A stretch of 64,000 nt of DNA from a bacterium (GTDB lineage Bacteria > Patescibacteriota > Saccharimonadia > Saccharimonadales > SZUA-47): positions 25,273 through 89,272 of the forward strand of contig JAYUWM010000074.1 of the NCBI GenBank assembly GCA_043753565.1, read 5' to 3'. Positions 5,882 through 63,365 of the stretch are shown in pieces; position 1 is the stretch's first letter, and the number at the start of each line of letters is the position of its first letter. Below the pieces are notes generated by a model. That model was not told the origin of the DNA, searched no databases, and saw only the letters and a program-made list of their open reading frames with translations. The position numbers and the translations under genes were made by a program.

Positions 5882-7438
5882 ATGAGTTATTCTCAAGAAT
5901 GGTTAGAGGATCAATCTGCTATAAGGGGGGTTCTAGTAGAAGTGGGTGTTCTGAGCCTTAAGACTAATCAAGAAATAACACTGTACCTATCTAATATAGG
6001 GTATATTACTGAAGACTCCTTAGTTAGCTTTAATCCAGTTATTACTGGAGGAATACAGATAACTGAGTCTATATCTCTAGATAGTACTACATCACTATCT
6101 TTTGGAGATTTACAGGTTAGTAACTATAACGGTGAATACGACAGTTGGCTTGATGATAGCCTATTTGTATGGGTTAATAGACCAATAAAGATCTATATAG
6201 GGGACCCTTCTTGGGTATGTACTAATCTTGCTCAGGTACGTACCGATTTTGGGTTAGTATTTAGCGGCGTAGTTACTGATATTGACTCTAGCTCTAGAGA
6301 TAGTTTAAATATACGAATTGGTGACAAACTACAGAGATTAAACACACCCCTTAGCGAAGATAAGTTGGGTGTTTACGGTACGTGGCCAGGCGACCAGAGT
6401 AACCAAGATACAGTTAAGCCTTTAGTATTTGGCGAACCTTTTAATATAAGCCCTCTACTAATTAATCCCGCACAACTAGAATACATGTTCAATAACGGGG
6501 CAACTGAAAGAGTCATTGAAATTAGAGATAATGGTGTACCCATATATAATAGTAGCATTACCAGTAATGTTATAGTTAATACTACTTTAGGTACTTTCAA
6601 GCTATTAAAGCCTTTAATAGGTACTTGTACAGTGTCTCTTCAAGGAAAGCTAGGTAGTATAAATTTAGTGACAGGCGTACTGAGTAGCACTTACACTAAT
6701 ACTATTGCTAACGCGATAGCTTTAATATGCACACAATACGGCAATAATAGCACTAAGCTAGCTATATCGGAAATAGACTTAAATAATTTTGCTGCATTTA
6801 ATATAGCAAATTCCCAAGCTATTGGTATATATATATCTGATAGAGAGAATGTTCTAAATATATGTCAAAGTATAGCTAGTAGTCTTAATGCACAATTATA
6901 CATGACCCGTCTAGGTAAGCTACAGCTACTGCAATTAGGGGTGTATACTTCCGATGCTACTGTAGTAATCACCAATGACGACATACTTCAGCATACTTTA
7001 GGCATATCTACTAGAACACCCGTAATCGCAGCTAGTAAGTTAGGGTATTGTAAGAACTGGACAGTACAGCCTAATCTTACTACTAATATTCCTACCGAGC
7101 ATAAGGATATTATGAAGACAGAGTGGTATACTAGTACTGTAGTAGACCCAGAAGTTAAGCTAATGTACAGTCTTAATAGCGACCCTATACAGAAAGAGAC
7201 TGTATTCATTGATAGGCTTGAGTCAGACACGGAAGCCGTTAGACTTCTTAACTACTTTAGCGTACCTAGAACTATATACAGACTTACCGGGACTTCTAAA
7301 TTGTTATCCCTGAAGTTAGGGCAGGCTGTTACTCTTGTGCATGATAGATTTAACCTGGCTAATGGTAAGACAGGACAGGTAGTCACGCTCACCCCTAATT
7401 GGGCTACCTCAACTGTAGAATTAGAGGTACTAATTTAA
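5882..7438 (+). CDS. minor tail / distal tail protein (putative)
   Basis: 518 aa from ATG 5882, preceded by GGAG. The ORF-track GTG at 5864 sits right at the predicted transcription start. Position is immediately after the tape measure gene. Confidence 0.55.
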   Translation: MSYSQEWLEDQSAIRGVLVEVGVLSLKTNQEITLYLSNIGYITEDSLVSFNPVITGGIQITESISLDSTTSLSFGDLQVSNYNGEYDSWLDDSLFVWVNRPIKIYIGDPSWVCTNLAQVRTDFGLVFSGVVTDIDSSSRDSLNIRIGDKLQRLNTPLSEDKLGVYGTWPGDQSNQDTVKPLVFGEPFNISPLLINPAQLEYMFNNGATERVIEIRDNGVPIYNSSITSNVIVNTTLGTFKLLKPLIGTCTVSLQGKLGSINLVTGVLSSTYTNTIANAIALICTQYGNNSTKLAISEIDLNNFAAFNIANSQAIGIYISDRENVLNICQSIASSLNAQLYMTRLGKLQLLQLGVYTSDATVVITNDDILQHTLGISTRTPVIAASKLGYCKNWTVQPNLTTNIPTEHKDIMKTEWYTSTVVDPEVKLMYSLNSDPIQKETVFIDRLESDTEAVRLLNYFSVPRTIYRLTGTSKLLSLKLGQAVTLVHDRFNLANGKTGQVVTLTPNWATSTVELEVLI

Positions 7439-12660: not shown

Positions 12661-12987
12661 ATGCCAAATTTATATAAAGTCCTTGGACAATCAAACCCAG
12701 CAGCGGCCACACTGACTACACTATACACAGTGCCTACAGCAACTTCGGCGGTCTGCTCTACTCTAGCAATCTGTAATCAAGGCGTTTCAACTTTATACCG
12801 AGTCGCAATTCGCCCAGCAGGAGCGCTCATTTCAGCTGCACACTATATTGTTTTCGATGCTGCGGTCGCTTCATTAGATACTGTTTTCCTTACGTTAGGC
12901 ACTACACTTGCAGCAACTGACGTTATTTCGGTACAAGCAGGTACAACAACAGTCAGCTTTAATCTTTCTGGCACGGAGATTACTTAA
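12661..12987 (+). CDS. small fibre-associated protein (hypothetical)
   Basis: 108 aa; starts 1 nt after the fibre stop and overlaps the next gene start (TAATG). Confidence 0.5.
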   Translation: MPNLYKVLGQSNPAAATLTTLYTVPTATSAVCSTLAICNQGVSTLYRVAIRPAGALISAAHYIVFDAAVASLDTVFLTLGTTLAATDVISVQAGTTTVSFNLSGTEIT

Positions 12988-15440
12988 TGAGTAGCCGCAC
13001 AGCGTCACGAAGCGGGCTTGTTGGAAAAAGCCTTTCTGTACCTTTCATCCATCCAAAGGGGGGAACCTCCAGTGCAGCATGGTACCGTGAACCTAGTTGG
13101 TTAGCACTACCTGACGTTACAGGGCTACAAAGACTTGTCGGTGTCGTTGCGATTTGGCCTGATTCGAACTTTCTTGCAGTGACATGCGCTGGGAGTCTTG
13201 GTTACCTGGTTGATTGGGGAGATGGCACGTCTTCCACAGTAGCCACAACAGTTCAAGCCGACAAACAGTACGATTTTAACTCTGTTTCTCTTGCAAATAC
13301 AAACGCACCCTGCACCTTGACAGATATAGGCGATTTGGTTACGCGTACTGCACACGGGTACACCAGCGGACAAACAGCAAAGTTTTTCAACATTTTAACG
13401 ACTACCGGGTTAACAGATAACTACACATACTTTGTTATCAACGCTACAGCAGACACTTTCCAAGTGGCGTTGACTCTAGGAGGTGCCGCGATTGCATTGA
13501 CACTTGATGGAACTGCGACACTGTTACCGTATAAGCAAGCTATAGTAAGTATAACACCTCAAAGCACAGGGACGTTAACATCACTGAATTTGAACGTAAA
13601 ACATGCAGCAATTGGTGGAAGTATTTTACCTGCGTACACAGCTGGCTGGCTGGATATAGCTATTGCTGGAACGAGTTTAGCTACTTTAACTATTGGGGGC
13701 GTTACTGTATATCAAGGGGATCTAGAACAGGTTAAGATAGTTGGTGGTAATAGCATCACGTCCATGGCCACTATGTTCAGTAACTGCTACTCCTTACAGT
13801 CAGTACCACTGTTCAGTACAGCGGGTGTAACGAATATGGTTAGTATGTTCCTTAACTGCTACTCCTTACAGTCTGTACCGCTATTCAATACAGGGGCTGT
13901 AACGAGTATGGCTAGCATGTTCAACGCCTGCTCCTCCTTACAGTCTGTACCACTGTTCAGTACAGCGGGTGTAACGAATATGGCTAGTATGTTCAACGCC
14001 TGCTACTCCTTACAGTCAGTACCGCTATTCAATACAGTGGCTGTAACGAGTATGTCTAGTATATTCAGTAGCTGCCCTTTATTACAGTCAGTACCTCTGT
14101 TTAATACAGCGGCTGTAACGAGTATGTCTAGTATGTTCAGTAGCTGCTCCTCACTACAGTCAGTACCGCTATTCAATACAGCGGGTGTAACGAATATGGT
14201 TAGTATGTTCATTAACTGCTACTCCTTACAGTCTGTACCGCTATTCAATACAGGGGCTGTAACGAGTATGGCTAGCATGTTCAACGCCTGCTCCTCACTA
14301 CAGTCAGTACCATTGTTTAATACAGCGGCTGTAACGAGTATGACTAGTATGTTCGCTAACTGCCCATCCTTACAGTCAGTACCACTGTTTAATACAGCGG
14401 TTGTAACGAATATGTCTAACATGTTCAACGCCTGCTTCTCTTTACAATCAGTACCTCTCTTCAATACAGGGGCTGTAACGACTATGTCTACTATGTTCAG
14501 TGGTGGCTGCTTCTCCTTACAGTCTGTACCACTGTTCAATACAGTAGCAGTTACCGATATGACCAGCATGTTCAGTAACTGCTCCTCCCTACAGTCAGTA
14601 CCGCTGTTCAATACAGCGGCTGTAACGAGTATGTCCACTATGTTCAACTCCTGTCCCTCCTTACAGTCAGTACCACTGTTCAATACAGCGGCTGTAACGA
14701 GTATGACTAACATGTTCAACACCTGTAGGTCTTTACAGTCAGTACCGCTGTTCAATGCAGGATTGATAGGATTTGCAACTGGCATGTTTTCAAACTCCAC
14801 TCAATTAGCTGTAGGCAGGTTGAATAATTTAAAAGTTGCTATCAGCTACGCAGGGTGTAAGTTATCTAAAACCGCCTTGGAAGATATTTTCAATGGGCTT
14901 GGAAAAGCATCAGGTGCACAGACATTTACCATCGGAACAAACTGGGGGGCAGCCCCTGTAGTATCTCTTTCTGGAACTACTACAGAGGGCTCTCTCACTG
15001 TGACAATGGCAAGCACTACAGGAATTGCAGTTGGGATGCAAGTAACTGGGACCAACTCTCCACTGACAAAAGATGGAGCCGTATCACTACAAGACGCGGG
15101 AGACACTGTTACGCGAGCTAGTCACCTACTACTAAATGGTACTGAAGTTTCGTTTGCAACCATTGTTAATACTACTGGTATTGCTACATTTACCCCATAC
15201 TTTGTTATCAACGCCACAGTAAATACTTTCCAAGTGGCACTGACTGCAGGAGGTGCCGCAATTGCGTTGACCCTTGACGGTACGGGTTCAATTCTGTATC
15301 GAACAGTGGTTGAGGCTATCAACCCAAACGTATCTGTAACGCTTTCGCGCCCCGCCACAGCAAGCGGATTGACAACGCTTACCTATCGTCAGTTAACAAC
15401 AGGAACGGCTATTCTTAAAGGCTGGACTGTTTCAGGATAA
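12987..15440 (+). CDS. BspA-like leucine-rich-repeat (DUF285-type) adhesin / receptor-binding protein
   Basis: 14 tandem 24-aa units xCxSLQSVPLFNTxxVTxMxxMFx, flanked by two paralogous ~68-aa domains (aa 113-180 and 703-770). Confidence 0.8.
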   Translation: MSSRTASRSGLVGKSLSVPFIHPKGGTSSAAWYREPSWLALPDVTGLQRLVGVVAIWPDSNFLAVTCAGSLGYLVDWGDGTSSTVATTVQADKQYDFNSVSLANTNAPCTLTDIGDLVTRTAHGYTSGQTAKFFNILTTTGLTDNYTYFVINATADTFQVALTLGGAAIALTLDGTATLLPYKQAIVSITPQSTGTLTSLNLNVKHAAIGGSILPAYTAGWLDIAIAGTSLATLTIGGVTVYQGDLEQVKIVGGNSITSMATMFSNCYSLQSVPLFSTAGVTNMVSMFLNCYSLQSVPLFNTGAVTSMASMFNACSSLQSVPLFSTAGVTNMASMFNACYSLQSVPLFNTVAVTSMSSIFSSCPLLQSVPLFNTAAVTSMSSMFSSCSSLQSVPLFNTAGVTNMVSMFINCYSLQSVPLFNTGAVTSMASMFNACSSLQSVPLFNTAAVTSMTSMFANCPSLQSVPLFNTAVVTNMSNMFNACFSLQSVPLFNTGAVTTMSTMFSGGCFSLQSVPLFNTVAVTDMTSMFSNCSSLQSVPLFNTAAVTSMSTMFNSCPSLQSVPLFNTAAVTSMTNMFNTCRSLQSVPLFNAGLIGFATGMFSNSTQLAVGRLNNLKVAISYAGCKLSKTALEDIFNGLGKASGAQTFTIGTNWGAAPVVSLSGTTTEGSLTVTMASTTGIAVGMQVTGTNSPLTKDGAVSLQDAGDTVTRASHLLLNGTEVSFATIVNTTGIATFTPYFVINATVNTFQVALTAGGAAIALTLDGTGSILYRTVVEAINPNVSVTLSRPATASGLTTLTYRQLTTGTAILKGWTVSG
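13323..13526 (+). repeat. intragenic domain duplication, copy 1
   Basis: Encodes DIGDLVTRTAHGY...YFVINATADTFQVALTLGGAAIALTLDGTATLL. The paralogous copy is at 15093-15296. Confidence 0.8.
13753..14797 (+). repeat. 14 x 72-bp coding tandem repeat (LRR units)
   Basis: Periodic ...tccttacagtcagtaccgctgttcaatacagcggctgtaacgagtatg... Segments 13821-13936 and 14181-14296 differ at one base. Confidence 0.9.
15093..15296 (+). repeat. intragenic domain duplication, copy 2
   Basis: Encodes DAGDTVTRASH...YFVINATVNTFQVALTAGGAAIALTLDGTGSIL. Confidence 0.8.
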
Positions 15441-38580: not shown

Positions 38581-39581
38581 CATTTATGGACTATACCATT
38601 ATCTTATAACTAACGACGCTATTTTGAATTTTCTATCAAGTCTGGTAGCTGTAGTAGAGTTTTTATATAGCATATTTATTAAGACGGCACTATCATCAAG
38701 TGTAAATCTAATATTATAAACTTGACCCTTAGGGTTTATATTTAATACTATTTTTTGTTCGATAGACTTATTAAGTAATATTTCACAAATACTTTTAAAC
38801 TCTTCTAAGAAACTTTTATTAGCGGAGCACAAACTTAAAGCTACTCTACCTGAAGCAGTTAAATTTAAGTTACCGTCCCCTTCTATATACCCACGCATAA
38901 ACTCTAAGAACAAGTAATCCTCAGTAAAATAGGGTAGCATATAGGTGTGTGTCTTAGCAGGGGTTATATTAAATATACTATTTAAATCCTGTACCATCTT
39001 TTCACTATTAAATCTAATTCTAAACGCAGACTCCTGCATAAAGGGACAAATATCGTGCGAAGAAGAAACGGCTAATTTGAATTTCTCTAAGTGACCTATA
39101 TCCTGCTTTTGTAAAGCTAATCCTACTCTATTACGTTCACCCTCTATCCAACCATCTGCCGCCAAAAAGCCTGCCCAGTAATTAGAAGATTTCGTATTAT
39201 TAGAGAAAAAATGCTCGTTTAATAGTTTCTTTTTTGAGAAATCTAAACCCCATCCTTTAGTTCTATAATTTACTTGTCGTTCTGTTAAATTAAAGTGCCT
39301 ACCAATTTGACTAAAAGTTAGTCCAGTTGCGCGTAGTTCTAAAAATTCTTCTAATGTCATTGTGTATCCCATATGTGGATTTGATACGTTAAATAAGATA
39401 TTCGCCGTGTTATACCTATATAGGTATCCCAGTCAACTTCTGTTCTAGAAGTTCTGTGAGTCTCTGAACCATTTGAAGGTATCCCTACCAACTCTGGCTG
39501 CTGATTATCCTTATTAAGGGCCTTCCAGCAATTGAGCGAATTTATTACCCTTTAATTACTTAAAGGGAGGGCAAAACGTCT
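38581..39581 (-). mobile_element. group I intron carrying a LAGLIDADG homing endonuclease ORF
   Basis: Exon 1 ends ..GGUUGGGGU and the intron ends ..AAAUG. Guide sequence GUUUU-GCCCU (39577-39568) pairs with exon 2 AAAAC (P10) and exon 1 GGGGU (P1, with U.G at the splice site). Splicing restores GWG|KT. Confidence 0.7.
38599..39372 (-). CDS. LAGLIDADG homing endonuclease (intron-encoded)
   Basis: Two motifs, WAGFLAADGWI and FMRGYIEGDGNL, plus an N-terminal HTH-like segment. Confidence 0.8.
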   Translation of the reverse strand: MGYTMTLEEFLELRATGLTFSQIGRHFNLTERQVNYRTKGWGLDFSKKKLLNEHFFSNNTKSSNYWAGFLAADGWIEGERNRVGLALQKQDIGHLEKFKLAVSSSHDICPFMQESAFRIRFNSEKMVQDLNSIFNITPAKTHTYMLPYFTEDYLFLEFMRGYIEGDGNLNLTASGRVALSLCSANKSFLEEFKSICEILLNKSIEQKIVLNINPKGQVYNIRFTLDDSAVLINMLYKNSTTATRLDRKFKIASLVIR

Positions 39582-48526: not shown

Positions 48527-49507
48527 TTACTGTAGCCCAAGGAACCATTTGCGGGCTGCACTAGCGGCTGTAGAAGTTACATCTTTACTAGTAAAGCCAC
48601 TGGCCGCTAACGTATCGGACTCTTCTTTAAAGATATCAGACATAACCCACTTAATGAAGACCCCTGTATTTTTAGGGTCACGACTTTCAACGTGCTCTAG
48701 ACCTTGTAGTAGTCTAGGCTCTGTAACTACTTTATCTACAAACTCACGGATTGAGGCAATTTTTTCAACGTCAACAGCTGCTAAAGTACTAACCTTAGAA
48801 CTAGAGTGCTTTTCTCCTTTTACTTTAAACCTTAGCGTGTTGCCTTTATACACGGTAGTCCATACTACCCCTTCTCCTACAAGCTCCCCAGCAAAATCAG
48901 CGCCTAGTAGTTGACGCGCAACTGGGCAGTCCTGCTCTACTAGATTAGTTTGGTATATTAATCCTGCTTGTGCTAGCTCCGGAATGTTAAAGTTAACCTT
49001 AATGGTATAGTTAGGAAACTGGTAGATACTAAGAAGTACTCCGCCGCACGCGTCTAGAACTTCTTGGCTAGACAGGAATTTTTGGGAGTCTGAGTTCTCA
49101 GAGATACGAATAGCAAATACAACAAACATTTTAGGAAGGTTATTAAGGCCTACGCTTTTTTGAATGTTGCCACCACAAAACTCGCCAAATATTTGTACAG
49201 TATCTTGAGCAGTTAAGGTATGCTGGGTCTGTATGTTAGCAAGAACCTGCGTAAATAAAGGCCTATTAGCGTAACTCCAAGTACTAGACCCTGCATTGTC
49301 GTCTTCTGGAGTAGTAACACGTTCACGGCTTTGTGTATACATAATACCTAAAGGTGAGAAACATACCGCGTGATTAGTTCCGTGTAGTTTAACCGTACCG
49401 CTGAAGTTTAGGGTCGGAAGGGGTTCATTGTGAAACTTGGCGGTATCTTTAACGTGTTTAATAACACTGCGAAATTGATCAATAGAAGGAAAAGAAATGT
49501 GTCTCAT
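48527..49507 (-). CDS. Rnl2-like RNA ligase
   Basis: Motif I VKLHGTN (compare EKIHGTN of T4 Rnl2), III FGEFCG, IV GEGVVW, V RFKVKGEKH. Confidence 0.65.
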   Translation of the reverse strand: MRHISFPSIDQFRSVIKHVKDTAKFHNEPLPTLNFSGTVKLHGTNHAVCFSPLGIMYTQSRERVTTPEDDNAGSSTWSYANRPLFTQVLANIQTQHTLTAQDTVQIFGEFCGGNIQKSVGLNNLPKMFVVFAIRISENSDSQKFLSSQEVLDACGGVLLSIYQFPNYTIKVNFNIPELAQAGLIYQTNLVEQDCPVARQLLGADFAGELVGEGVVWTTVYKGNTLRFKVKGEKHSSSKVSTLAAVDVEKIASIREFVDKVVTEPRLLQGLEHVESRDPKNTGVFIKWVMSDIFKEESDTLAASGFTSKDVTSTAASAARKWFLGLQ

Positions 49508-52631: not shown

Positions 52632-52726
52632 ACCATATTTAAGTACCCTAGCAGCCCTGAAGCCCTGAAGCCCTGAAGCCCTGAAGCCCTTGCTGTGGTT
52701 TTAACACAAAGGTACTTAAATATGGT
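52632..52726 (-). ncRNA. CCAUAU-type long hairpin H1
   Basis: 16-bp arms accatatttaagtacc/ggtacttaaatatggt. The interior carries (GCCCTGAA)x4. The arm overlaps the CCA of tRNA-Thr. Confidence 0.6.
52654..52690. repeat. octamer tandem repeat (GCCCTGAA)x4 + partial
   Basis: Exact 8-bp repeats inside hairpin H1. Confidence 0.9.
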
Positions 52727-57454: not shown

Positions 57455-57528
57455 TGGGGTAATAACGGGTTTCAATCCCTATCTTATAGTTTCACAGACG
57501 ATGGTGCTATCATTACACTATTATTACC
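57455..57528 (-). tRNA. tRNA-His(GUG)
   Basis: Encoded G-1 pairs with C73 (G-GTAATAA...TTATTAC-C-CCA). Anticodon loop CUGUGAA. Weak T-arm (GGG-AUUGAAA-CCC). Confidence 0.7.
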
Positions 57529-59191: not shown

Positions 59192-59278
59192 CGGAAAAGG
59201 AGAGGGTCGAACTCTCAAGGCTATTTCTAACTCGACGGTTTTCAAGACCGGTCCCATCGCCAATTGGGTTGCTTTTCC
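59189..59278 (-). tRNA. tRNA-Ser(UGA)
   Basis: Acceptor GGAAAAG/CTTTTCC, anticodon loop CUUGAAA, long variable arm, T-loop UUCGACC, CCA encoded. Confidence 0.85.
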
Positions 59279-59602: not shown

Positions 59603-59676
59603 TGGTACCTGCTGATGGTTACGCTCCACCGTCTAACGATTATCAGTCATTGGCTCTACTATTGAGCTAAGCAGGT
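59603..59676 (-). tRNA. tRNA-Ile(GAU)
   Basis: Acceptor ACCTGCT/AGCAGGT, anticodon loop CUGAUAA, non-canonical T-loop AGCGUAA, CCA encoded. Confidence 0.8.
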
Positions 59677-60351: not shown

Positions 60352-61659
60352 ATTGAAAACTTAGATAAATGTAAGCTATACACTTATCTAAGTTCTCGCG
60401 AACTTAGGGCTTTAACTGGCTTGCGGCCTAGGACTGGCTACCTTTTAGGTGTAAATCACTATTGCACTTACGGACTGAATACCGGCTCATAAATGGGTGT
60501 GCCTTTGATTACTTAATCACTGAGCTGAATTCGGCTGACTAGGCCCATAGGACTGACTACCTACTGAAGTAATAATTGAATATAAGTAGTCATCTCAAAT
60601 ATTCAACTCATATTTACTACCTTTTCACGGCTGGTTACGTCTAGTGTTATAGTGGGTAGCTTAGGCAAGAGCATAATCACATCTAGCAGGTATATGCAAG
60701 AAACTCTTTCGAGATTCTGCAACCCTGTATTAAAAACACAGAGCGGGTATAAGTGTAGAGCTATGTCAAAGCTCTTAGGAATTCAAGCCCTCGTAGATTC
60801 GCAAATCTACTACATTGCCACCCAGTTATTACACTTATTAGGAACAAATAAACCTAAACAATTTAGCTTGATAAGCATTTTTAGGCTTAGCGTGTACTAA
60901 GCGCAATACTTTTGCTAGCATAGGTTTATTTGTAATGTTTTGATAATCTAAAGTATTAAATTCTACTCGCAACTGCTTTCGTAGCTGATTGGAGATAGGG
61001 CAGAAGCCGTTTTTCCAATAATTTTGCATTGTTTTAATAATCATAATATATGTAAAGGTTAACCTCTGTTCAGAAGTCTTATTAGGGTTAAACAGTTATT
61101 ATCTGTGTACACCGTTATACGTTTTGTAGACCTTAGGTAATTATTCTAAGCTCATACAAGAGCTTTATTGTCATTCTTACTGTGGCCACAGCCAAAGGTT
61201 AATCTTTAAATGCCTTTACGCTAAGATTCTAGCCATAGGAGTATTGAAGTCTCCAGGTAGCTAGCTGCTCTTGCGTTTCGGTTCTGTTTAAAGTTACTAC
61301 AACTTGCCTGAAATCAGGAAATTTGCTACAACTTAGGGTCGAACCATCATCAGAAGGTTACCATAATAATTAGGGCTGTTGCTAAGATTTGTCAACAATT
61401 AAGAACTTGATTAGCGGCCAAACTAAATCGACTATCATTTAAGCTATCTCATGTCCACCCGAATAACAAGTTTTACCTTAGGACATTATTAGGTCCAAAT
61501 AGAGAAGTTATCCGTCTAAGTTCACTACAACTTATTTACACATACAAGGGTGTTGTATGTAGCAAAATCCGAGAGGCTTACACGAACCTAAAACGTCTAC
61601 ATTGATCTTATGTTAAATGTGGGTAGCGCCGGTGTGTCTTACTCTGTCTCTAAGTATTA
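60352..61659 (-). ncRNA. promoter-driven ORF-poor 1.3-kb segment (candidate long structured RNA)
   Basis: A consensus promoter at 61660-61688 fires into it. Only one weak 68-aa ORF is present. It has many 6-9 bp hairpins and short direct repeats. Confidence 0.35.
60838..61044 (-). CDS. doubtful ORF (68 aa)
   Basis: The only minus-strand ORF of 60 aa or more in the ORF-poor segment; no SD at either candidate ATG. Confidence 0.2.
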   Translation of the reverse strand: MIIKTMQNYWKNGFCPISNQLRKQLRVEFNTLDYQNITNKPMLAKVLRLVHAKPKNAYQAKLFRFICS

Positions 61660-61688
61660 ATTATACAATGATTTTATTATTACTTCAA
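61660..61688 (-). promoter_or_regulatory. early-type promoter TTGAAG-17-TATAATTAAT
   Basis: -35 at 61688-61683, -10 at 61665-61660. Confidence 0.65.
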
Positions 61689-61705
61689 GCCTAAATTTTA
61701 CTAAC

Positions 61706-61906
61706 TTACCAGGAAGCTTCGTCTACAACTGTTTTAGTAATAGTTACTAGGTCGCCATTAACCATGGCGACTAGAGATGCTGTTACAAGTGACCCAATAC
61801 CACTAGAAGAGTCTACATTAATAGTAAGGTATTCCGAATCTGGGTACTTAGAATGCCACAAAGTTATAGCAGTTACGTCATCACGGTGTAAGGATATAGT
61901 GTTCAT
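61706..61906 (-). CDS. hypothetical protein
   Basis: 66-aa ORF downstream of a promoter. Confidence 0.5.
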   Translation of the reverse strand: MNTISLHRDDVTAITLWHSKYPDSEYLTINVDSSSGIGSLVTASLVAMVNGDLVTITKTVVDEASW

Positions 61907-61932
61907 TTTGCGGTATTTCCAAATAAGTATTA

Positions 61933-61962
61933 ATTATACAATAAATAATACTTAGTTATCAA
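61933..61962 (-). promoter_or_regulatory. early-type promoter TTGATA-18-TATAATTAAT
   Basis: -35 at 61962-61957, -10 at 61938-61933. Confidence 0.55.
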
Positions 61963-61980
61963 GTTTAAAATTATTAATGC

Positions 61981-62058: not shown

Positions 62059-62202
62059 ATTTATTAGTAATCGGTATCCCTCTTCCCGATTGTGTAACTT
62101 GATTTTATAGATGGTTGTCAATTTAGTGTGGCACCAAGAATGACGTTTACCGAGTGTTACTTACCATCAACTCGCATAGGGTTCTTTATCTCTAAAGAAT
62201 AC

Positions 62203-62276
62203 TGGCAGGGGTACTAGGGCTCGAACCTAGAATAACGACGTCAAAGGTCGTTGTGTTACCATTACACTATACCCCA
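62203..62276 (-). tRNA. tRNA-Gln(UUG)
   Basis: TGGGGTA...TACCCCT with U1.U72, anticodon loop CUUUGAC, T-loop UUCGAGC, CCA encoded. Confidence 0.85.
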
Positions 62277-62399
62277 GTAATCATATTTAAGCATACTCCC
62301 ATTTGCCTTATGAGCCGGGTGTTCTTACTGGTTCTTATATACTGCCAACGCGCTAACAATCAGTTGTGCCCATTTACACTAATGCTTAAATATATTTAC
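62277..62399 (-). ncRNA. CCAUAU-type long hairpin H4
   Basis: 12-bp arms atatttaagcat/atgcttaaatat plus outer gtaa/ttac. It abuts the 5' end of tRNA-Gln. Confidence 0.55.
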
Positions 62400-62405
62400 T
62401 ACAAA

Positions 62406-62526
62406 CATATTTATGAATTTTAAATATTAACTACGCCTGACAACGTAGCTGTTTCGCAGGTGTCAGCCTACCGACCTAGGTTCCACGGCATGGTGGAACA
62501 AAAGCCGTCTAAAATTCATAAATATG
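62406..62526 (-). ncRNA. CCAUAU-type long hairpin H5
   Basis: 17-bp arms catatttatgaatttta/taaaattcataaatatg. Confidence 0.6.
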
Positions 62527-62527
62527 C

Positions 62528-62603
62528 GAACTCATTGCAAGCAGGATTCGAACCTACGTTTACCCTAACGGGCCGTCCTAAGCCACTAGACTATTGCGAG
62601 TTC
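62528..62603 (-). ncRNA. tRNA-like module lacking an anticodon loop (Y-RNA/YrlA-like architecture?)
   Basis: D-arm GUCU-AGUGGCUUA-GGAC and canonical T-arm GUAGG-UUCGAAU-CCUGC. The anticodon arm is replaced by GCCC-GUUA-GGGU. Extended 10-bp closing helix GAACUCGCAA/UUGC(AAU)GAGUUC, with no CCA. Confidence 0.55.
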
Positions 62604-62653
62604 TTTGGGTCATGACTCCCAAATCTGGTTAAAGGGTAATTAATCCTCGTGAC

Positions 62654-62765
62654 CATATTTAACAACACTTTAAAGCTACTAGTACACTGTACCGTTACGC
62701 TCCACGCGCGGAGAGTATAATGTTAAGCACCAATCACTCATGAATGATAAATGTTGTTAAATATG
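62654..62765 (-). ncRNA. CCAUAU-type long hairpin H6
   Basis: 14-bp arms catatttaacaaca/tgttgttaaatatg. Confidence 0.6.
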
Positions 62766-62863
62766 ATTAGAGTTAGTTACTTGATGGTACTTAGCACCGT
62801 CTATTACTTAGTATAGGGCACAACTTAACTGCCCGGACGTATTGTCGTTTCACCGAACTCTGA

Positions 62864-62964
62864 CCATATTTAAGTAATCTAATCTTACTATAGTTGGCGC
62901 TATAGATTCGCAACTCGTCAAAGTTACCGGGCTAGTAATTGCCCGTTAAATTACTTAAATATGG
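62864..62964 (-). ncRNA. CCAUAU-type long hairpin H7
   Basis: 15-bp arms ccatatttaagtaat/attacttaaatatgg; two internal hairpins. The arm overlaps the CCA of tRNA-Lys. Confidence 0.6.
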
Positions 62965-63035
62965 TGGGACTGCTAGGTATCGCGCCTAGTTTTACTGGTT
63001 AAAAGCCAGTTACTTCACTTTAAAGTTTCAATCCC
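62962..63035 (-). tRNA. tRNA-Lys(UUU), divergent
   Basis: Acceptor GGGATTG/CAGTCCC, anticodon loop CUUUUAA. T-loop is CGCGAUA and the D-loop lacks GG. Confidence 0.75.
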
Positions 63036-63119
63036 ATTAAATATCCCAACCTTCGCGGTTGAGTGCACCTCGAGTAGCCCTGTAAGGCTTCTGGTGACTA
63101 CCCGCGCTTCTTTTTCTAG

Positions 63120-63153
63120 CTAGTGCCGCAAAGGGGGGGTTTCGCGGCACTAG
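63120..63153. other. strong hairpin with G7 loop
   Basis: ctagtgccgc-aaa-ggggggg-ttt(c)-gcggcactag. A T-rich tract follows on the + strand only. Confidence 0.6.
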
Positions 63154-63158
63154 CGTTT

Positions 63159-63190
63159 GTTTTCGTGTTTTCGTGTTTTCATGTTTTCAT
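63159..63190. repeat. octamer tandem repeat (GTTTTCGT)x2(GTTTTCAT)x2
   Basis: Four contiguous 8-bp units between the hairpin and the stop codon at 63192. Confidence 0.85.
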
Positions 63191-63191
63191 G

Positions 63192-63365
63192 TTAATTATA
63201 TGGTCCGGTGTACACTGGTTTTTCTACTACCCATGTAGGGATATATTGCTGCTGGAAAGGCATACCTGGGTATTCGTGCGTTACACTAGGTTGACCAAAT
63301 GTAACTGTACACTCTTTTGTTTGATCCATTTGCTCTAGCATAGCAATAGCTTCATGAATTTTCAT
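63192..63365 (-). CDS. small hypothetical protein (57 aa)
   Basis: MKIHEAIAMLEQMDQTKECT... Below the ORF-track cutoff; lies 2 nt after the upstream small ORF. Confidence 0.45.
   Translation of the reverse strand: MKIHEAIAMLEQMDQTKECTVTFGQPSVTHEYPGMPFQQQYIPTWVVEKPVYTGPYN

What the first reader, a model, noticed from the sequence alone, without database searches (positions are those of the whole stretch)
62528..62603. tRNA-like module without anticodon loop on an extended helix (Y-RNA/YrlA-like design)
The RNA GAACUCGCAA-UA-GUCU-AGUGGCUUA-GGAC-G-GCCC-GUUA-GGGU-AAAC-GUAGG-UUCGAAU-CCUGC-UUGC-AAU-GAGUUC has a canonical D-arm (GG in the loop) and a canonical T-arm. The anticodon arm is replaced by a 4-bp stem with a tetraloop. 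The 'acceptor' is a 10-bp helix with a 3-nt bulge and no CCA. tRNA mimicry with D and T arms, a truncated anticodon arm and an acceptor-like stem continuing into a long helix is how bacterial YrlA (Y RNA-like) RNAs are described. Those normally accompany a Ro60/Rsr gene, which I do not see in this window. Alternatively it is a decoy for tRNA-modifying or tRNA-cleaving enzymes.
Basis: partly seen in the sequence, partly recalled or inferred. Interest (0 to 1): 0.7.

Follow-up and report, generated by a model that had tools for sequence, protein, structure and literature searches.

The report
Phage tRNA-like RNA without an anticodon
This is a real, conserved phage gene for an RNA that folds like a tRNA but cannot read codons, one member of an apparently undescribed family found in the tRNA gene clusters of about fifty uncultured phages, so it probably imitates tRNA to bind some protein rather than to make protein.

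Summary
It is not a decayed tRNA. It belongs to a conserved family: 37 distinct sequences from about 50 IMG/VR phage contigs (T5-like and jumbo phages). In these, 97.5% of pair cells are standard pairs and 17 of 25 pairs show compensatory changes. The outer helix, the AAU bulge and an upstream hairpin with an 8-nt loop are nearly invariant. The anticodon-position loop is 3-7 nt, mostly 6, with no consistent anticodon, so the RNA cannot decode. Rfam has no family for it.

It is not a YrlA. YrlA is permuted (T, acceptor hairpin, D), and canonical YrlA-type RNAs with a GUUACUUC motif sit next to Ro60 genes in related phages. The Ro60 idea is still not empty. The closest relatives carry a TROVE/Ro60 gene 1-3 kb downstream on the same strand, and the window keeps a 68-aa remnant of it at the same place. 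Most family members and most Ro60 loci do not co-occur.

Best reading: a new non-decoding tRNA mimic whose partner is unknown.

The parts
62528..62603 (-). Core tRNA-like RNA (76 nt). Outer helix 5' strand 62603-62598; inner acceptor 5' strand 62597-62594; U8 A9 62593-62592; D arm 62591-62575; anticodon-position stem and tetraloop 62573-62562 (loop GUUA 62569-62566); variable AAAC 62561-62558; T arm 62557-62541; inner acceptor 3' strand 62540-62537; AAU bulge 62536-62534; outer helix 3' strand 62533-62528.
   Evidence: Sequence. Rfam tRNA 34.9 bits. Family model R1 99.2 bits. Pair counts on A2 and A3. RNAalifold.
62604..62623 (-). Upstream hairpin B, UUUGGG-AGUCAUGA-CCCAAA, directly abutting the outer helix. 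The 8-nt loop AGUCAUGA (AGUAAUUA in other members) holds a 6-nt palindrome.
   Evidence: Part of model R1. Five of the 6 stem pairs show compensatory changes on 37 sequences. The loop alternates between AGUCAUGA and AGUAAUUA in the set found without fixing it.
62626..62655 (-). 5' stem UGGU/ACCA (62655-62652 with 62629-62626) enclosing hairpin A (62648-62632, loop AUUAAUUAC). This is the probable 5' part of the primary transcript.
   Evidence: RNAfold of 62400-62670(-). The same arrangement (UAUGG...hairpin A...CCAUA) is seen in relatives. Inferred, not tested for covariation.
62652..62662 (-). Motif TTAAATATGGT, the window's version of the relatives' GTGTGTTTCTATATGG. It is the 3' arm of the upstream spacer hairpin and is possibly a phage promoter that starts at GG.
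   Evidence: 16 matches in the window against 4.4 expected, clustered in the tRNA array. In relatives the motif ends in the GG that begins a tRNA and also precedes other ncRNA units. The promoter role is an inference.
62405..62527 (-). Long spacer hairpin that starts at the first base after the element. The closing stem GCAUAUUUAUGAAUUUU / AAAAUUCAUAAAUAUGU has 17 bp and is not followed by a U tract.
   Evidence: RNAfold (z = -4.5 for the whole 271 nt). In L081 the equivalent is a perfect 16-bp hairpin.
60838..61044 (-). 68-aa ORF, a remnant of a Ro60/TROVE gene. It lies at the place where L001, L017 and L081 have an intact 426-443 aa gene.
   Evidence: tblastn with the L017 protein: 36% identity over 67 aa, E 5e-5. 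HMM built from 63 phage Ro60 proteins: E 1.8e-6. Pfam TROVE hit on the intact relatives.
62965..63035 (-). tRNA-Lys(UUU), the conserved upstream neighbour of the element. It has an aberrant T loop (CGCGAUA) and a D loop without GG.
   Evidence: Rfam 46.3 bits; missed by ARAGORN. The order Lys(UUU) then element is seen in 13 of about 19 loci.

Best explanation
The element is a functional gene for a non-decoding tRNA-like RNA. It is one member of a phage-specific family that lives inside large phage tRNA gene arrays.

Shown:
- The RNA keeps everything needed for the tRNA L-shape: U8, A14, GG in the D loop, A21, the UUCGAAU T loop, and D, T and acceptor helices that covary.
- Its anticodon-position arm is a variable stub with a 3-7 nt loop.
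- Its acceptor side is a sequence-invariant 6-bp helix plus an AAU bulge plus a 4-bp helix.

Inferred:
- It is transcribed from the conserved motif about 50 nt upstream, together with two 5' hairpins, and is bounded 3' by a long spacer hairpin.
- It is stabilised, and perhaps trimmed, by the tRNA maturation machinery.
- It works by mimicry. The elbow and body are read as 'tRNA' by a tRNA-binding protein. The invariant bulged helix and the hairpin loops give specificity for a dedicated partner, and they also keep the RNA out of aminoacylation and the ribosome.
- The most likely roles are a decoy or sponge for a tRNA-targeting host factor, or a scaffold that recruits an RNA-processing factor.

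The partner is not identified.
For: - Family size: 37 distinct sequences from about 50 phage contigs of 4-374 kb.
- Model scores: R1 gives members 51-114 bits and ordinary tRNAs at most 36 bits.
- Structure: 97.5% of pair cells are standard pairs and 17 of 25 pairs show double changes, with 0 of 500 shuffles as high. RNAalifold agrees.
- Inner acceptor helix covaries: GCAA/UUGC, GUAG/CUAC, GGG/CCC.
- Outer helix: pair 1 is G-C, A-U or G-U (21/3/12). L160 has a fully compensated GAUCC/GGAUC with the AAU bulge kept.
- Invariance: AAU in 35 of 37, and the outer helix is invariant at 3 of its 6 pairs.
- Anticodon-position loop: about 21 of 36 have 6 nt and 3-5 have 7 nt. ARAGORN reads the few 7-nt loops as Lys UUU, Glu UUC and Val CAC, and gives '???' for 6-nt loops.
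- Body type: both type-I-like and Leu-like long-variable-arm bodies carry the same acceptor, T arm and hairpin-B module, and L124 has one of each.
- Dimeric forms: L017 and L086 enclose two D/T bodies in one outer helix.
- Copy number: one copy in the 64-kb window.
- Distribution: phage-restricted. Among one genome for each of 185,579 species, only two MAG contigs carry it.
- Ro60 decay: the window copy is intact although the neighbouring Ro60 gene has decayed.
Against: - There are no expression data.
- The single-sequence fold is not significantly stable.
- No conserved neighbouring protein gene was found, so the partner is only inferred.
- The alignments used for pair counting were fitted to the model. 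Part of the invariance (hairpin B loop, GAACTC, CTACAATGAGTT) was imposed by the search patterns, although each pattern left the other half free.
- The decoy or scaffold mechanism has no direct support here.
Confidence: 0.6

Rival explanations
1. It is a Ro60-binding Y RNA of the Yrn1 type. The invariant bulged closing helix is the Ro60 (Rsr) site and the tRNA-like body is the effector or protective module. It would work with the phage Ro60 in relatives, and with a host Rsr where the phage gene is lost.
For: - The TROVE + Ro60-vWA gene lies 1.07-2.9 kb downstream on the same strand in L001, L017 and L081/L170, and 8.3 kb downstream in L160.
- The window has a remnant at the syntenic site.
- This meets the criterion of within 4 kb and on the same strand used in PMC4201824.
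- The layout (ends in a long helix, then D arm, 6-nt-loop arm, T arm) is the one described for Yrn1.
- L017 and L170 show no canonical YrlA unit with a T arm near Ro60.
Against: - The element lacks the GUUACUUC and GGYGUAG motifs shared by the canonical Y RNAs next to these Ro60 genes.
- It lacks the GNCGAAN0-1G motif (2 of 37 sequences, and there it lies in the variable region).
- L001 and L160 have a canonical YrlA-type RNA as well.
- Only 4 of 63 Ro60 loci hold the element.
- Fourteen jumbo-type members with at least 4 kb of downstream DNA held have no Ro60 there.
- L002 keeps a Ro60 fragment but has no element.
- The window's Ro60 decayed while the element stayed intact.
- The four linked cases may be a single inherited arrangement.
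Confidence: 0.2
2. It is a processing or insulating element. A tRNA-shaped module would be placed in the array only so that RNase P and RNase Z cut the polycistronic transcript there, or so that neighbours fold independently (tRNA punctuation, as for mascRNA).
For: - It sits in a dense array between long spacer hairpins.
- The acceptor, T arm and elbow, which are the RNase P and RNase Z determinants, are the conserved parts.
- Ten of 37 members have G-CCA after the helix.
Against: - Any ordinary tRNA in the array would serve this purpose.
- It does not explain the invariant outer-helix sequence, the AAU bulge, the conserved hairpin-B loop, a single copy per genome, or retention across very different phages.
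Confidence: 0.1
3. It is a special-purpose chargeable tRNA-like RNA. It would be aminoacylated through anticodon-independent identity (Ala, Ser or Leu type) and used outside normal decoding.
For: - The acceptor helix ends with the discriminator G, and some members encode CCA.
- One subfamily has a Leu-like D arm and a long variable arm.
Against: - With the T stem, the 10-bp bulged acceptor gives a 15-bp arm, which does not fit the 12- or 13-bp rule for EF-Tu and SelB (general knowledge).
- There is no G3-U70.
- CCA is absent in most members.
- There is no mRNA-like part.
Confidence: 0.05
4. It is a decaying tRNA pseudogene (for example a former tRNA-Lys or tRNA-Glu copy), or a DNA-level site such as an attachment or homing-endonuclease target.
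For: - L081's copy still has a 7-nt loop and is called tRNA-Lys(UUU) by ARAGORN.
- The element usually follows tRNA-Lys.
- The loop of the window copy is 2 nt shorter than the common GUUAUG.
Against: - Compensatory changes occur in every helix across 37 sequences.
- Non-tRNA features are invariant.
- The family is present in distantly related phages.
- A DNA site would not need covarying stems.
Confidence: 0.04

Closest known systems
Canonical tRNA (Rfam RF00005)
   Same: Cloverleaf order, a 4-bp D stem with GG in its loop, a 5-bp T stem with UUCGAAU, U8/A14/A21, and location in a tRNA array. The window copy scores 34.9 bits.
   Different: There is no 7-nt anticodon loop and no conserved U33 or R37, and no consistent anticodon. 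The acceptor side is 6 bp + AAU bulge + 4 bp instead of 7 bp. CCA is mostly absent. Conserved 5' hairpins are present. Most relatives fall below the Rfam threshold.
D. radiodurans Yrn1 (Y RNA), as described in PMC4201824
   Same: The ends lie in a long helix that occupies the acceptor position, followed by a D-like region, a stem with a 6-nt loop in the anticodon position, and a T arm. A Ro60 gene is nearby in the window's closest relatives.
   Different: No sequence similarity could be tested, because no Yrn1 sequence was held. The known Ro60-site motifs are absent. Most family members have no Ro60 gene nearby.
YrlA (bacterial and mycobacteriophage Y RNA) and the YrlA-type RNAs found here next to phage Ro60 genes
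   Same: A tRNA mimic with D and T arms, encoded by phages, and present in the same arrays in L001 and L160.
   Different: YrlA is circularly permuted (T arm, acceptor hairpin, D arm, with the ends in the anticodon-stem position). It carries the GGYGUAG..GUUACUUC motifs and sits 90-480 nt from Ro60.
mascRNA and other tRNA-like small RNAs cut out by RNase P and RNase Z (from general knowledge)
   Same: tRNA-like fold with an undersized anticodon loop; not a decoder.
   Different: These are eukaryotic and derive from the 3' end of a long ncRNA. They have no extended bulged acceptor.
SpF41 sRNA (Rfam RF02435, Streptococcus)
   Same: The Rfam consensus has the same plan: a bulged closing helix, a D-like stretch, a 5-bp stem with a tetraloop, and a GGUUCGAAUCC T arm (alignment).
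   Different: The score is only 20.8 bits (gathering score 52, E 2.4). SpF41 ends in a terminator and its function is unknown.
tmRNA tRNA-like domain, and GOLLD RNA
   Same: Both are structured ncRNAs carried in the same phage tRNA arrays (permuted tmRNA and GOLLD in L089 and L116).
   Different: The element has no tag reading frame and no pseudoknots, and ARAGORN and Rfam give no tmRNA or GOLLD hit on it.

Membership tests
tRNA (decoding adaptor) | Score at or above the Rfam RF00005 gathering threshold | tested here: met
   34.9 bits against a threshold of 29 for the window copy. Of the relatives scanned, only L084 reaches it, at 29.8 bits.
tRNA (decoding adaptor) | 5-bp anticodon stem with a 7-nt loop (U33, anticodon, purine 37) | tested here: not met
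   The window has a 4-bp stem with the loop GUUA. Family loops are 3-7 nt and mostly 6. ARAGORN does not call the window copy.
tRNA (decoding adaptor) | 7-bp acceptor stem, discriminator base, CCA end | tested here: not met
   Read in register, only 5 of 7 pairs form (flagged). The conserved structure is 6 bp + AAU + 4 bp. CCA is encoded in 10 of 37 members and not in the window.
tRNA (decoding adaptor) | Elbow nucleotides (GG in the D loop, UUCRANY T loop, U8, A14) | tested here: met
YrlA | Order of 5' strand, T arm, acceptor-like hairpin, D arm, 3' strand | tested here: not met
   The element runs D, short arm, T. The YrlA order is taken from PMC4201824 and from the phage YrlA-type RNAs.
YrlA | Ro60-site motif (GNCGAAN0-1G; in the phage relatives GGYGUAG..GUUACUUC) | tested here: not met
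   GNCGAAN0-1G occurs in 2 of 37 sequences and lies outside the helix. There is no GUUACUUC in or beside the element.
YrlA / Y RNA in general | Encoded within about 4 kb of a Ro60 (TROVE) gene on the same strand | tested here: inconclusive
   Met in L001, L017 and L081/L170, and for the window only with respect to a 68-aa remnant. Not met in 14 jumbo-type members with enough flank. Only 4 of 63 Ro60 loci hold the element.
Y RNA in general | Binds Ro60/Rsr | not testable with these tools
   Needs immunoprecipitation or gel shift.
tmRNA | tRNA-like domain together with a tag reading frame and pseudoknots | tested here: not met
   ARAGORN and Rfam give no tmRNA call in the window.
New family defined here (model R1) | Hairpin B, then 6-bp outer helix, AAU bulge, 4-bp inner helix, D arm, short arm, T arm | tested here: met
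   The window copy scores 99.2 bits over model positions 1-102 and forms all 25 pairs.

The most novel reading that the evidence does not exclude
Phage tRNA arrays carry a second, so far undescribed class of tRNA-mimic RNA. It would be a modular platform: an invariant bulged closing helix plus specific hairpin loops, holding one or two L-shaped bodies. It would either recruit an RNA-surveillance protein (Ro60-like or other) or neutralise tRNA-targeting antiviral nucleases or toxins by occupying their tRNA-body binding site. Its conserved position right after tRNA-Lys(UUU), a favoured immune target, would then reflect one anti-defence cassette.
Probability: 0.3. Interest if true: 0.85.

Novelty: new variant of a known kind. 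Interest (0 to 1): 0.68.

Why it matters
Phage tRNA arrays are now understood largely as counter-measures to tRNA-cleaving bacterial immunity. They also harbour enigmatic structured RNAs such as GOLLD and phage tmRNA.

A conserved RNA that keeps the tRNA body but has discarded the anticodon loop cannot replenish decoding capacity. It must therefore act by being recognised as a tRNA. Identifying its partner would show either a new RNA-based anti-defence strategy or a new branch of Ro60/Y-RNA-like biology in viruses.

The family is well defined by a covariance model with strong covariation, and it occurs in T5-like phages, so it is experimentally approachable. It also explains a class of odd ARAGORN calls in phage annotation: '???' anticodons and spurious Lys, Glu or Val tRNAs.

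Tried and rejected
- BLAST against 50,697 cultured-phage records. Near and distant searches with the window locus, and with a jumbo-phage member, found nothing beyond tRNA-Gln and one 27-nt match. The family is so far known only from uncultured contigs.
- First exact pattern across the D, short-arm and T region: no hits. That region is too variable.
- Conserved neighbouring protein. All-against-all clustering of ORFs in 18 member loci gave no family shared across lineages. The top cluster is made of spurious antisense ORFs over the element itself.
- K-turn at the AAU bulge. Rejected because the pairs after the bulge are Watson-Crick G-C and A-U, not tandem G-A.
- Hammerhead or other small ribozyme cores around hairpin B. 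CCGAUGAAC is not conserved (the window has CCCAAAGAAC).
- Short ORF through hairpin B. It is not conserved (stops differ in L001).
- Pseudoknot between the short-arm loop (GUUAUG) and the CAUAAU linker between the hairpins. They are complementary in several members but not in L084, L085, L001, L081 or L116, so this was dropped.
- CRISPR type I-E repeat similarity (GAGUUC). Only a hexamer matches, so it was dismissed.
- Sigma-70 promoter and intrinsic terminator scan of 62150-63250: no excess over shuffles.
- Rfam at permissive thresholds over the locus and over the Ro60-remnant region: only tRNA and sub-threshold noise.
- Literature searches for a described family (tRNA-like, phage, tRNA array, SpF41) found none.
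- I did not verify whether Rfam 15 holds a YrlA model. No Y-RNA family appeared even in loci that clearly carry YrlA-type RNAs.

Full report
**Setting**

The window is part of a phage genome. Its DNA polymerase is 47% identical to those of T5-like Vibrio and Escherichia phages. The window also encodes a primase, a DnaB-type helicase, an NAD-dependent DNA ligase, an RNA ligase and a ribonucleotide reductase. From about 52 kb to the end of the window, the - strand carries a tRNA array. ARAGORN tRNAs there, and Rfam finds several more. The finding lies in this array, between tRNA-Lys(UUU) at 62965-63035 and tRNA-Gln at 62203-62276.

**The observation**

- The Rfam tRNA model matches 62533-62600(-) at 34.9 bits, above the gathering score of 29. 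Four nucleotides stand where nine model positions of the anticodon loop should be, and two acceptor pairs are non-standard.
- ARAGORN does not call it.
- On its own the sequence does not fold significantly better than shuffles (z = -1.87). The structure therefore had to be tested by comparison.

**Relatives**

Anchoring on a nearby ClpP-like gene gave 80 related phage loci. BLAST found the element in L001 and, for its 3' half only, in L017. Three exact-pattern scans of IMG/VR then found many more:
- GGTTCGANTCCNNCTTGCAATGAGTTC, on the 3' half, found L081.
- GGAGTCATGACCCNNNGAACTC, on the upstream hairpin plus the 5' strand.
- GGTTCGANNCCNNNCTACAATGAGTT, on the T loop plus the 3' strand.

Each of the last two patterns left the other half of the molecule free. 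I built a covariance model, R1, from 11 sequences.
- It scores members at 51-114 bits and ordinary tRNAs at no more than 36 bits.
- Two divergent variants fall in between: L160 at 42.5 bits, and the dimeric L017 at 32 bits.
- The window has a single copy, at 99.2 bits.
- In all there are 37 distinct sequences from about 50 contigs of 4 to 374 kb.
- A scan of one genome for each of 185,579 bacterial and archaeal species found only two true members. Both are on small MAG contigs.
- No record among 50,697 cultured phages matched.

**Structure**

I counted pairs on the 37-sequence alignment.
- 97.5% of pair cells are standard pairs, against 33-46% when partners are slid by 1-3 columns and 85% in column shuffles.
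- None of 500 shuffles reaches the observed values.
- 17 of 25 pairs show changes on both sides.
- RNAalifold predicts the same 25 pairs independently.

Every helix is supported.
- Hairpin B: 5 of 6 pairs covary.
- Inner acceptor helix: GCAA/UUGC, GUAG/CUAC or GGG/CCC.
- D stem: 4 of 4 pairs covary.
- T stem: 4 of 5 pairs covary.
- Outer helix: nearly invariant in sequence. Its first pair is G-C, A-U or G-U, and L160 has a fully compensated GAUCC/GGAUC with the AAU bulge kept.

The AAU bulge is present in 35 of 37 sequences. L001 has an extra C opposite the bulge. L017 and L086 have a whole second D/T body inserted there, enclosed by the same outer helix. These cases show that the outer helix is a closing stem and not a mis-registered acceptor.

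**Not a decoder and not a pseudogene**

- The arm in the anticodon position has 4-6 pairs that covary in sequence.
- Its loop is 6 nt in about 21 of 36 members, 7 nt in three to five, and 3-5 nt in the rest. The window's GUUA looks like the common GUUAUG minus two bases.
- Where ARAGORN forces a call, it reads Lys UUU (L081), Glu UUC (L088) or Val CAC (L108), or gives '???'.
- The body can be type-I-like, or Leu-like with a long variable arm. The acceptor, T arm and hairpin-B module stays the same, and L124 has one of each type side by side.
- The nucleotides that build the tRNA elbow are kept throughout.

This is the pattern expected of an RNA selected to look like a tRNA, but not to decode.

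**Surroundings**

- In all members the element is preceded by hairpin B. This has a 4-6 bp stem and an 8-nt loop, AGUCAUGA or AGUAAUUA, and both loops contain a 6-nt palindrome.
- It is usually also preceded by hairpin A, or by a palindromic substitute.
- Further upstream lies a roughly 17-nt motif: GTGTGTTTCTATATGG in the jumbo-type phages and TTAAATATGG in the window. The same motif directly abuts the 5' GG of ordinary tRNAs and precedes other ncRNA units. Its reverse complement follows the genes.
- Together the two copies make long spacer hairpins between genes. Their stems carry pair-specific extensions. I read the motif as a probable phage promoter that starts at GG. This is an inference.
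- The element follows tRNA-Lys(UUU) in 13 of about 19 loci examined.
- The same arrays hold GOLLD RNA and permuted tmRNA.

**The Ro60 question**

- No ORF of 257 aa or more in the window has a TROVE domain.
- A protein shared by L001, L017 and L081 does: TROVE at 42.8 and 33.1 bits (cut-off 23), plus a Ro60-type vWA domain. It lies 1.45, 2.9 and 1.07 kb downstream of the element, on the same strand.
- At the syntenic place the window has only a 68-aa ORF, 60838-61044(-), that still resembles the middle of that protein (E 5e-5 by tblastn; E 1.8e-6 against an HMM of 63 phage Ro60 proteins). The rest of the 1.6 kb there is non-coding.

The lineage therefore had Ro60 next to the element, and the window's phage lost it.

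I then anchored on Ro60 itself and obtained 63 phage loci.
- Only four contain the element: L161 = L001, L170 = L081, L202 = L017, and L160.
- In at least 34 of the 63 loci there is a different RNA 90-480 nt upstream of Ro60. It has the canonical YrlA layout: GGYGUAG..CRGUUACUUC, a hairpin, a T arm, an acceptor-like hairpin, a D arm UAGCUCAGUUGGUAGAGC, and a 3' strand. L001 and L160 have both RNAs.
- The element lacks those motifs, and it lacks the GNCGAAN0-1G motif of PMC4201824.
- Fourteen jumbo-type members have at least 4 kb of downstream DNA held, and none has a Ro60 gene in the held DNA.
- L002 keeps a Ro60 fragment but no element.

The paper describes YrlA as permuted. It describes D. 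radiodurans Yrn1 as having the D arm, then a 6-nt-loop arm, then the T arm, with the ends passing through the acceptor position. The element therefore resembles Yrn1 in design and is not a YrlA. Its link to Ro60 is confined to one lineage and may be a single inherited arrangement.

**Mechanism**

What is shown is a conserved, structured, phage-restricted, non-decoding tRNA-shaped RNA. It has a sequence-invariant bulged closing helix and a conserved 5' hairpin.

What I infer:
- It is made as a transcript of about 130 nt from the upstream motif.
- It is recognised through its elbow and body by a tRNA-binding protein.
- The invariant helix, bulge and hairpin loops are the specific contact for a dedicated partner, and they also keep it out of translation.

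I rate a decoy or scaffold role as most likely (0.6 for the mimic reading as a whole). The other readings are a Ro60-bound Y RNA at 0.2, a mere processing or insulating signal at 0.1, a chargeable special tRNA at 0.05, and a pseudogene or DNA-level site at 0.04.

Immune nucleases that read tRNA bodies are documented. AriB, for example, is modelled as contacting both the anticodon stem and the D loop (PMC12409363). That makes the decoy idea plausible, but nothing here tests it.

**Novelty**

Rfam 15 has no family for this RNA, and the literature searches found no description. The kind of RNA, a tRNA mimic in bacteria and phages, is known. This architecture and its distribution are new.

Noticed in passing
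window 62965-63035 (-): tRNA-Lys(UUU) with a non-canonical elbow. The T loop is CGCGAUA instead of UUCGAAU, and the D loop UAAAGUG has no GG. Rfam gives 46.3 bits and ARAGORN misses it. L086 and L088 seem to have the same odd Lys tRNA. It could be a variant that evades a body-reading tRNA nuclease.
   Followed up: partly
window 60838-61044 (-), within the non-coding stretch 60352-61980: A 68-aa remnant of a Ro60/TROVE gene that is intact in L001, L017 and L081. Short non-coding segments nearby are conserved with relatives: 60615-60701 is 92% identical to L001 8550-8636, and 60504-60571 is 82% identical to L170 11631-11698. These may be leftover Y-RNA-like units (AUUACUUC at about 60570).
   Followed up: partly
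L142-L204, 90-480 nt upstream of the Ro60 gene (e.g. L176 2935-3074, L149 9852-9990, L001 about 6990-7130): A family of canonical YrlA-type RNAs (GGYGUAG..GUUACUUC, hairpin, T arm, acceptor hairpin, D arm) next to Ro60 genes embedded in T5-like phage tRNA arrays. Rfam reports no Y-RNA family for them. Extra GUUACUUC units without a T arm flank Ro60 in L170 and L202, and one YrlA-like unit (L101 about 1480-1590) has no Ro60 in the held DNA.
   Followed up: partly
window 62863-62963, 62652-62769, 62405-62527, 62280-62397, 52632-52726 (-): Long spacer hairpins between tRNA genes. Their 16-17 bp closing stems are built from CATATTTAA.../...TTAAATATG with pair-specific extensions. In jumbo-type relatives the same role is played by CCATATATAAACAC / GTGTGTTTCTATATGG. 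The forward copy ends in the GG that starts the next tRNA, so it may be a phage promoter.
   Followed up: partly
window 59606-59676, 57458-57527, 59193-59278 (-): Further tRNA-like hits seen by Rfam only: 50.9 bits, 31.5 bits, and 39.9 bits on the tRNA-Sec model (below its threshold of 47). ARAGORN calls none of them.
   Followed up: no
L089 7073-7534, L116 7933-8393; L089 2742-3096; L143, L149, L160, L169; L002 6728-7098, L003 9196-9621: GOLLD RNA and permuted tmRNA genes (tag ...ANDTQFALAA and variants) lie inside the same phage tRNA arrays that hold the element or the Ro60 gene.
   Followed up: no
L084 (- strand, about 220 nt downstream of the element) and L089: A second conserved non-tRNA unit follows the promoter-like motif. 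It begins ...GGUCUGAGGUCAUUACUCAGCGUAAACGGCAGCG, shows a compensatory change between the two phages, and has a hairpin loop GGUCAUUA like the loops of hairpins A and B.
   Followed up: no
window about 63157-63195 and 63108-63150: Four tandem 8-nt repeats (CATGAAAA / CACGAAAA on the - strand) sit next to a GC-rich perfect hairpin (GCUAGUGCCGC...GCGGCACUAGC), downstream of a small ORF.
   Followed up: no
window 48527-49507 (-), 38599-39372 (-), 12987-15440 (+): An RNA ligase (PF09414) next to an NAD-dependent DNA ligase, a LAGLIDADG homing endonuclease, and an 817-aa DUF285-repeat protein.
   Followed up: no
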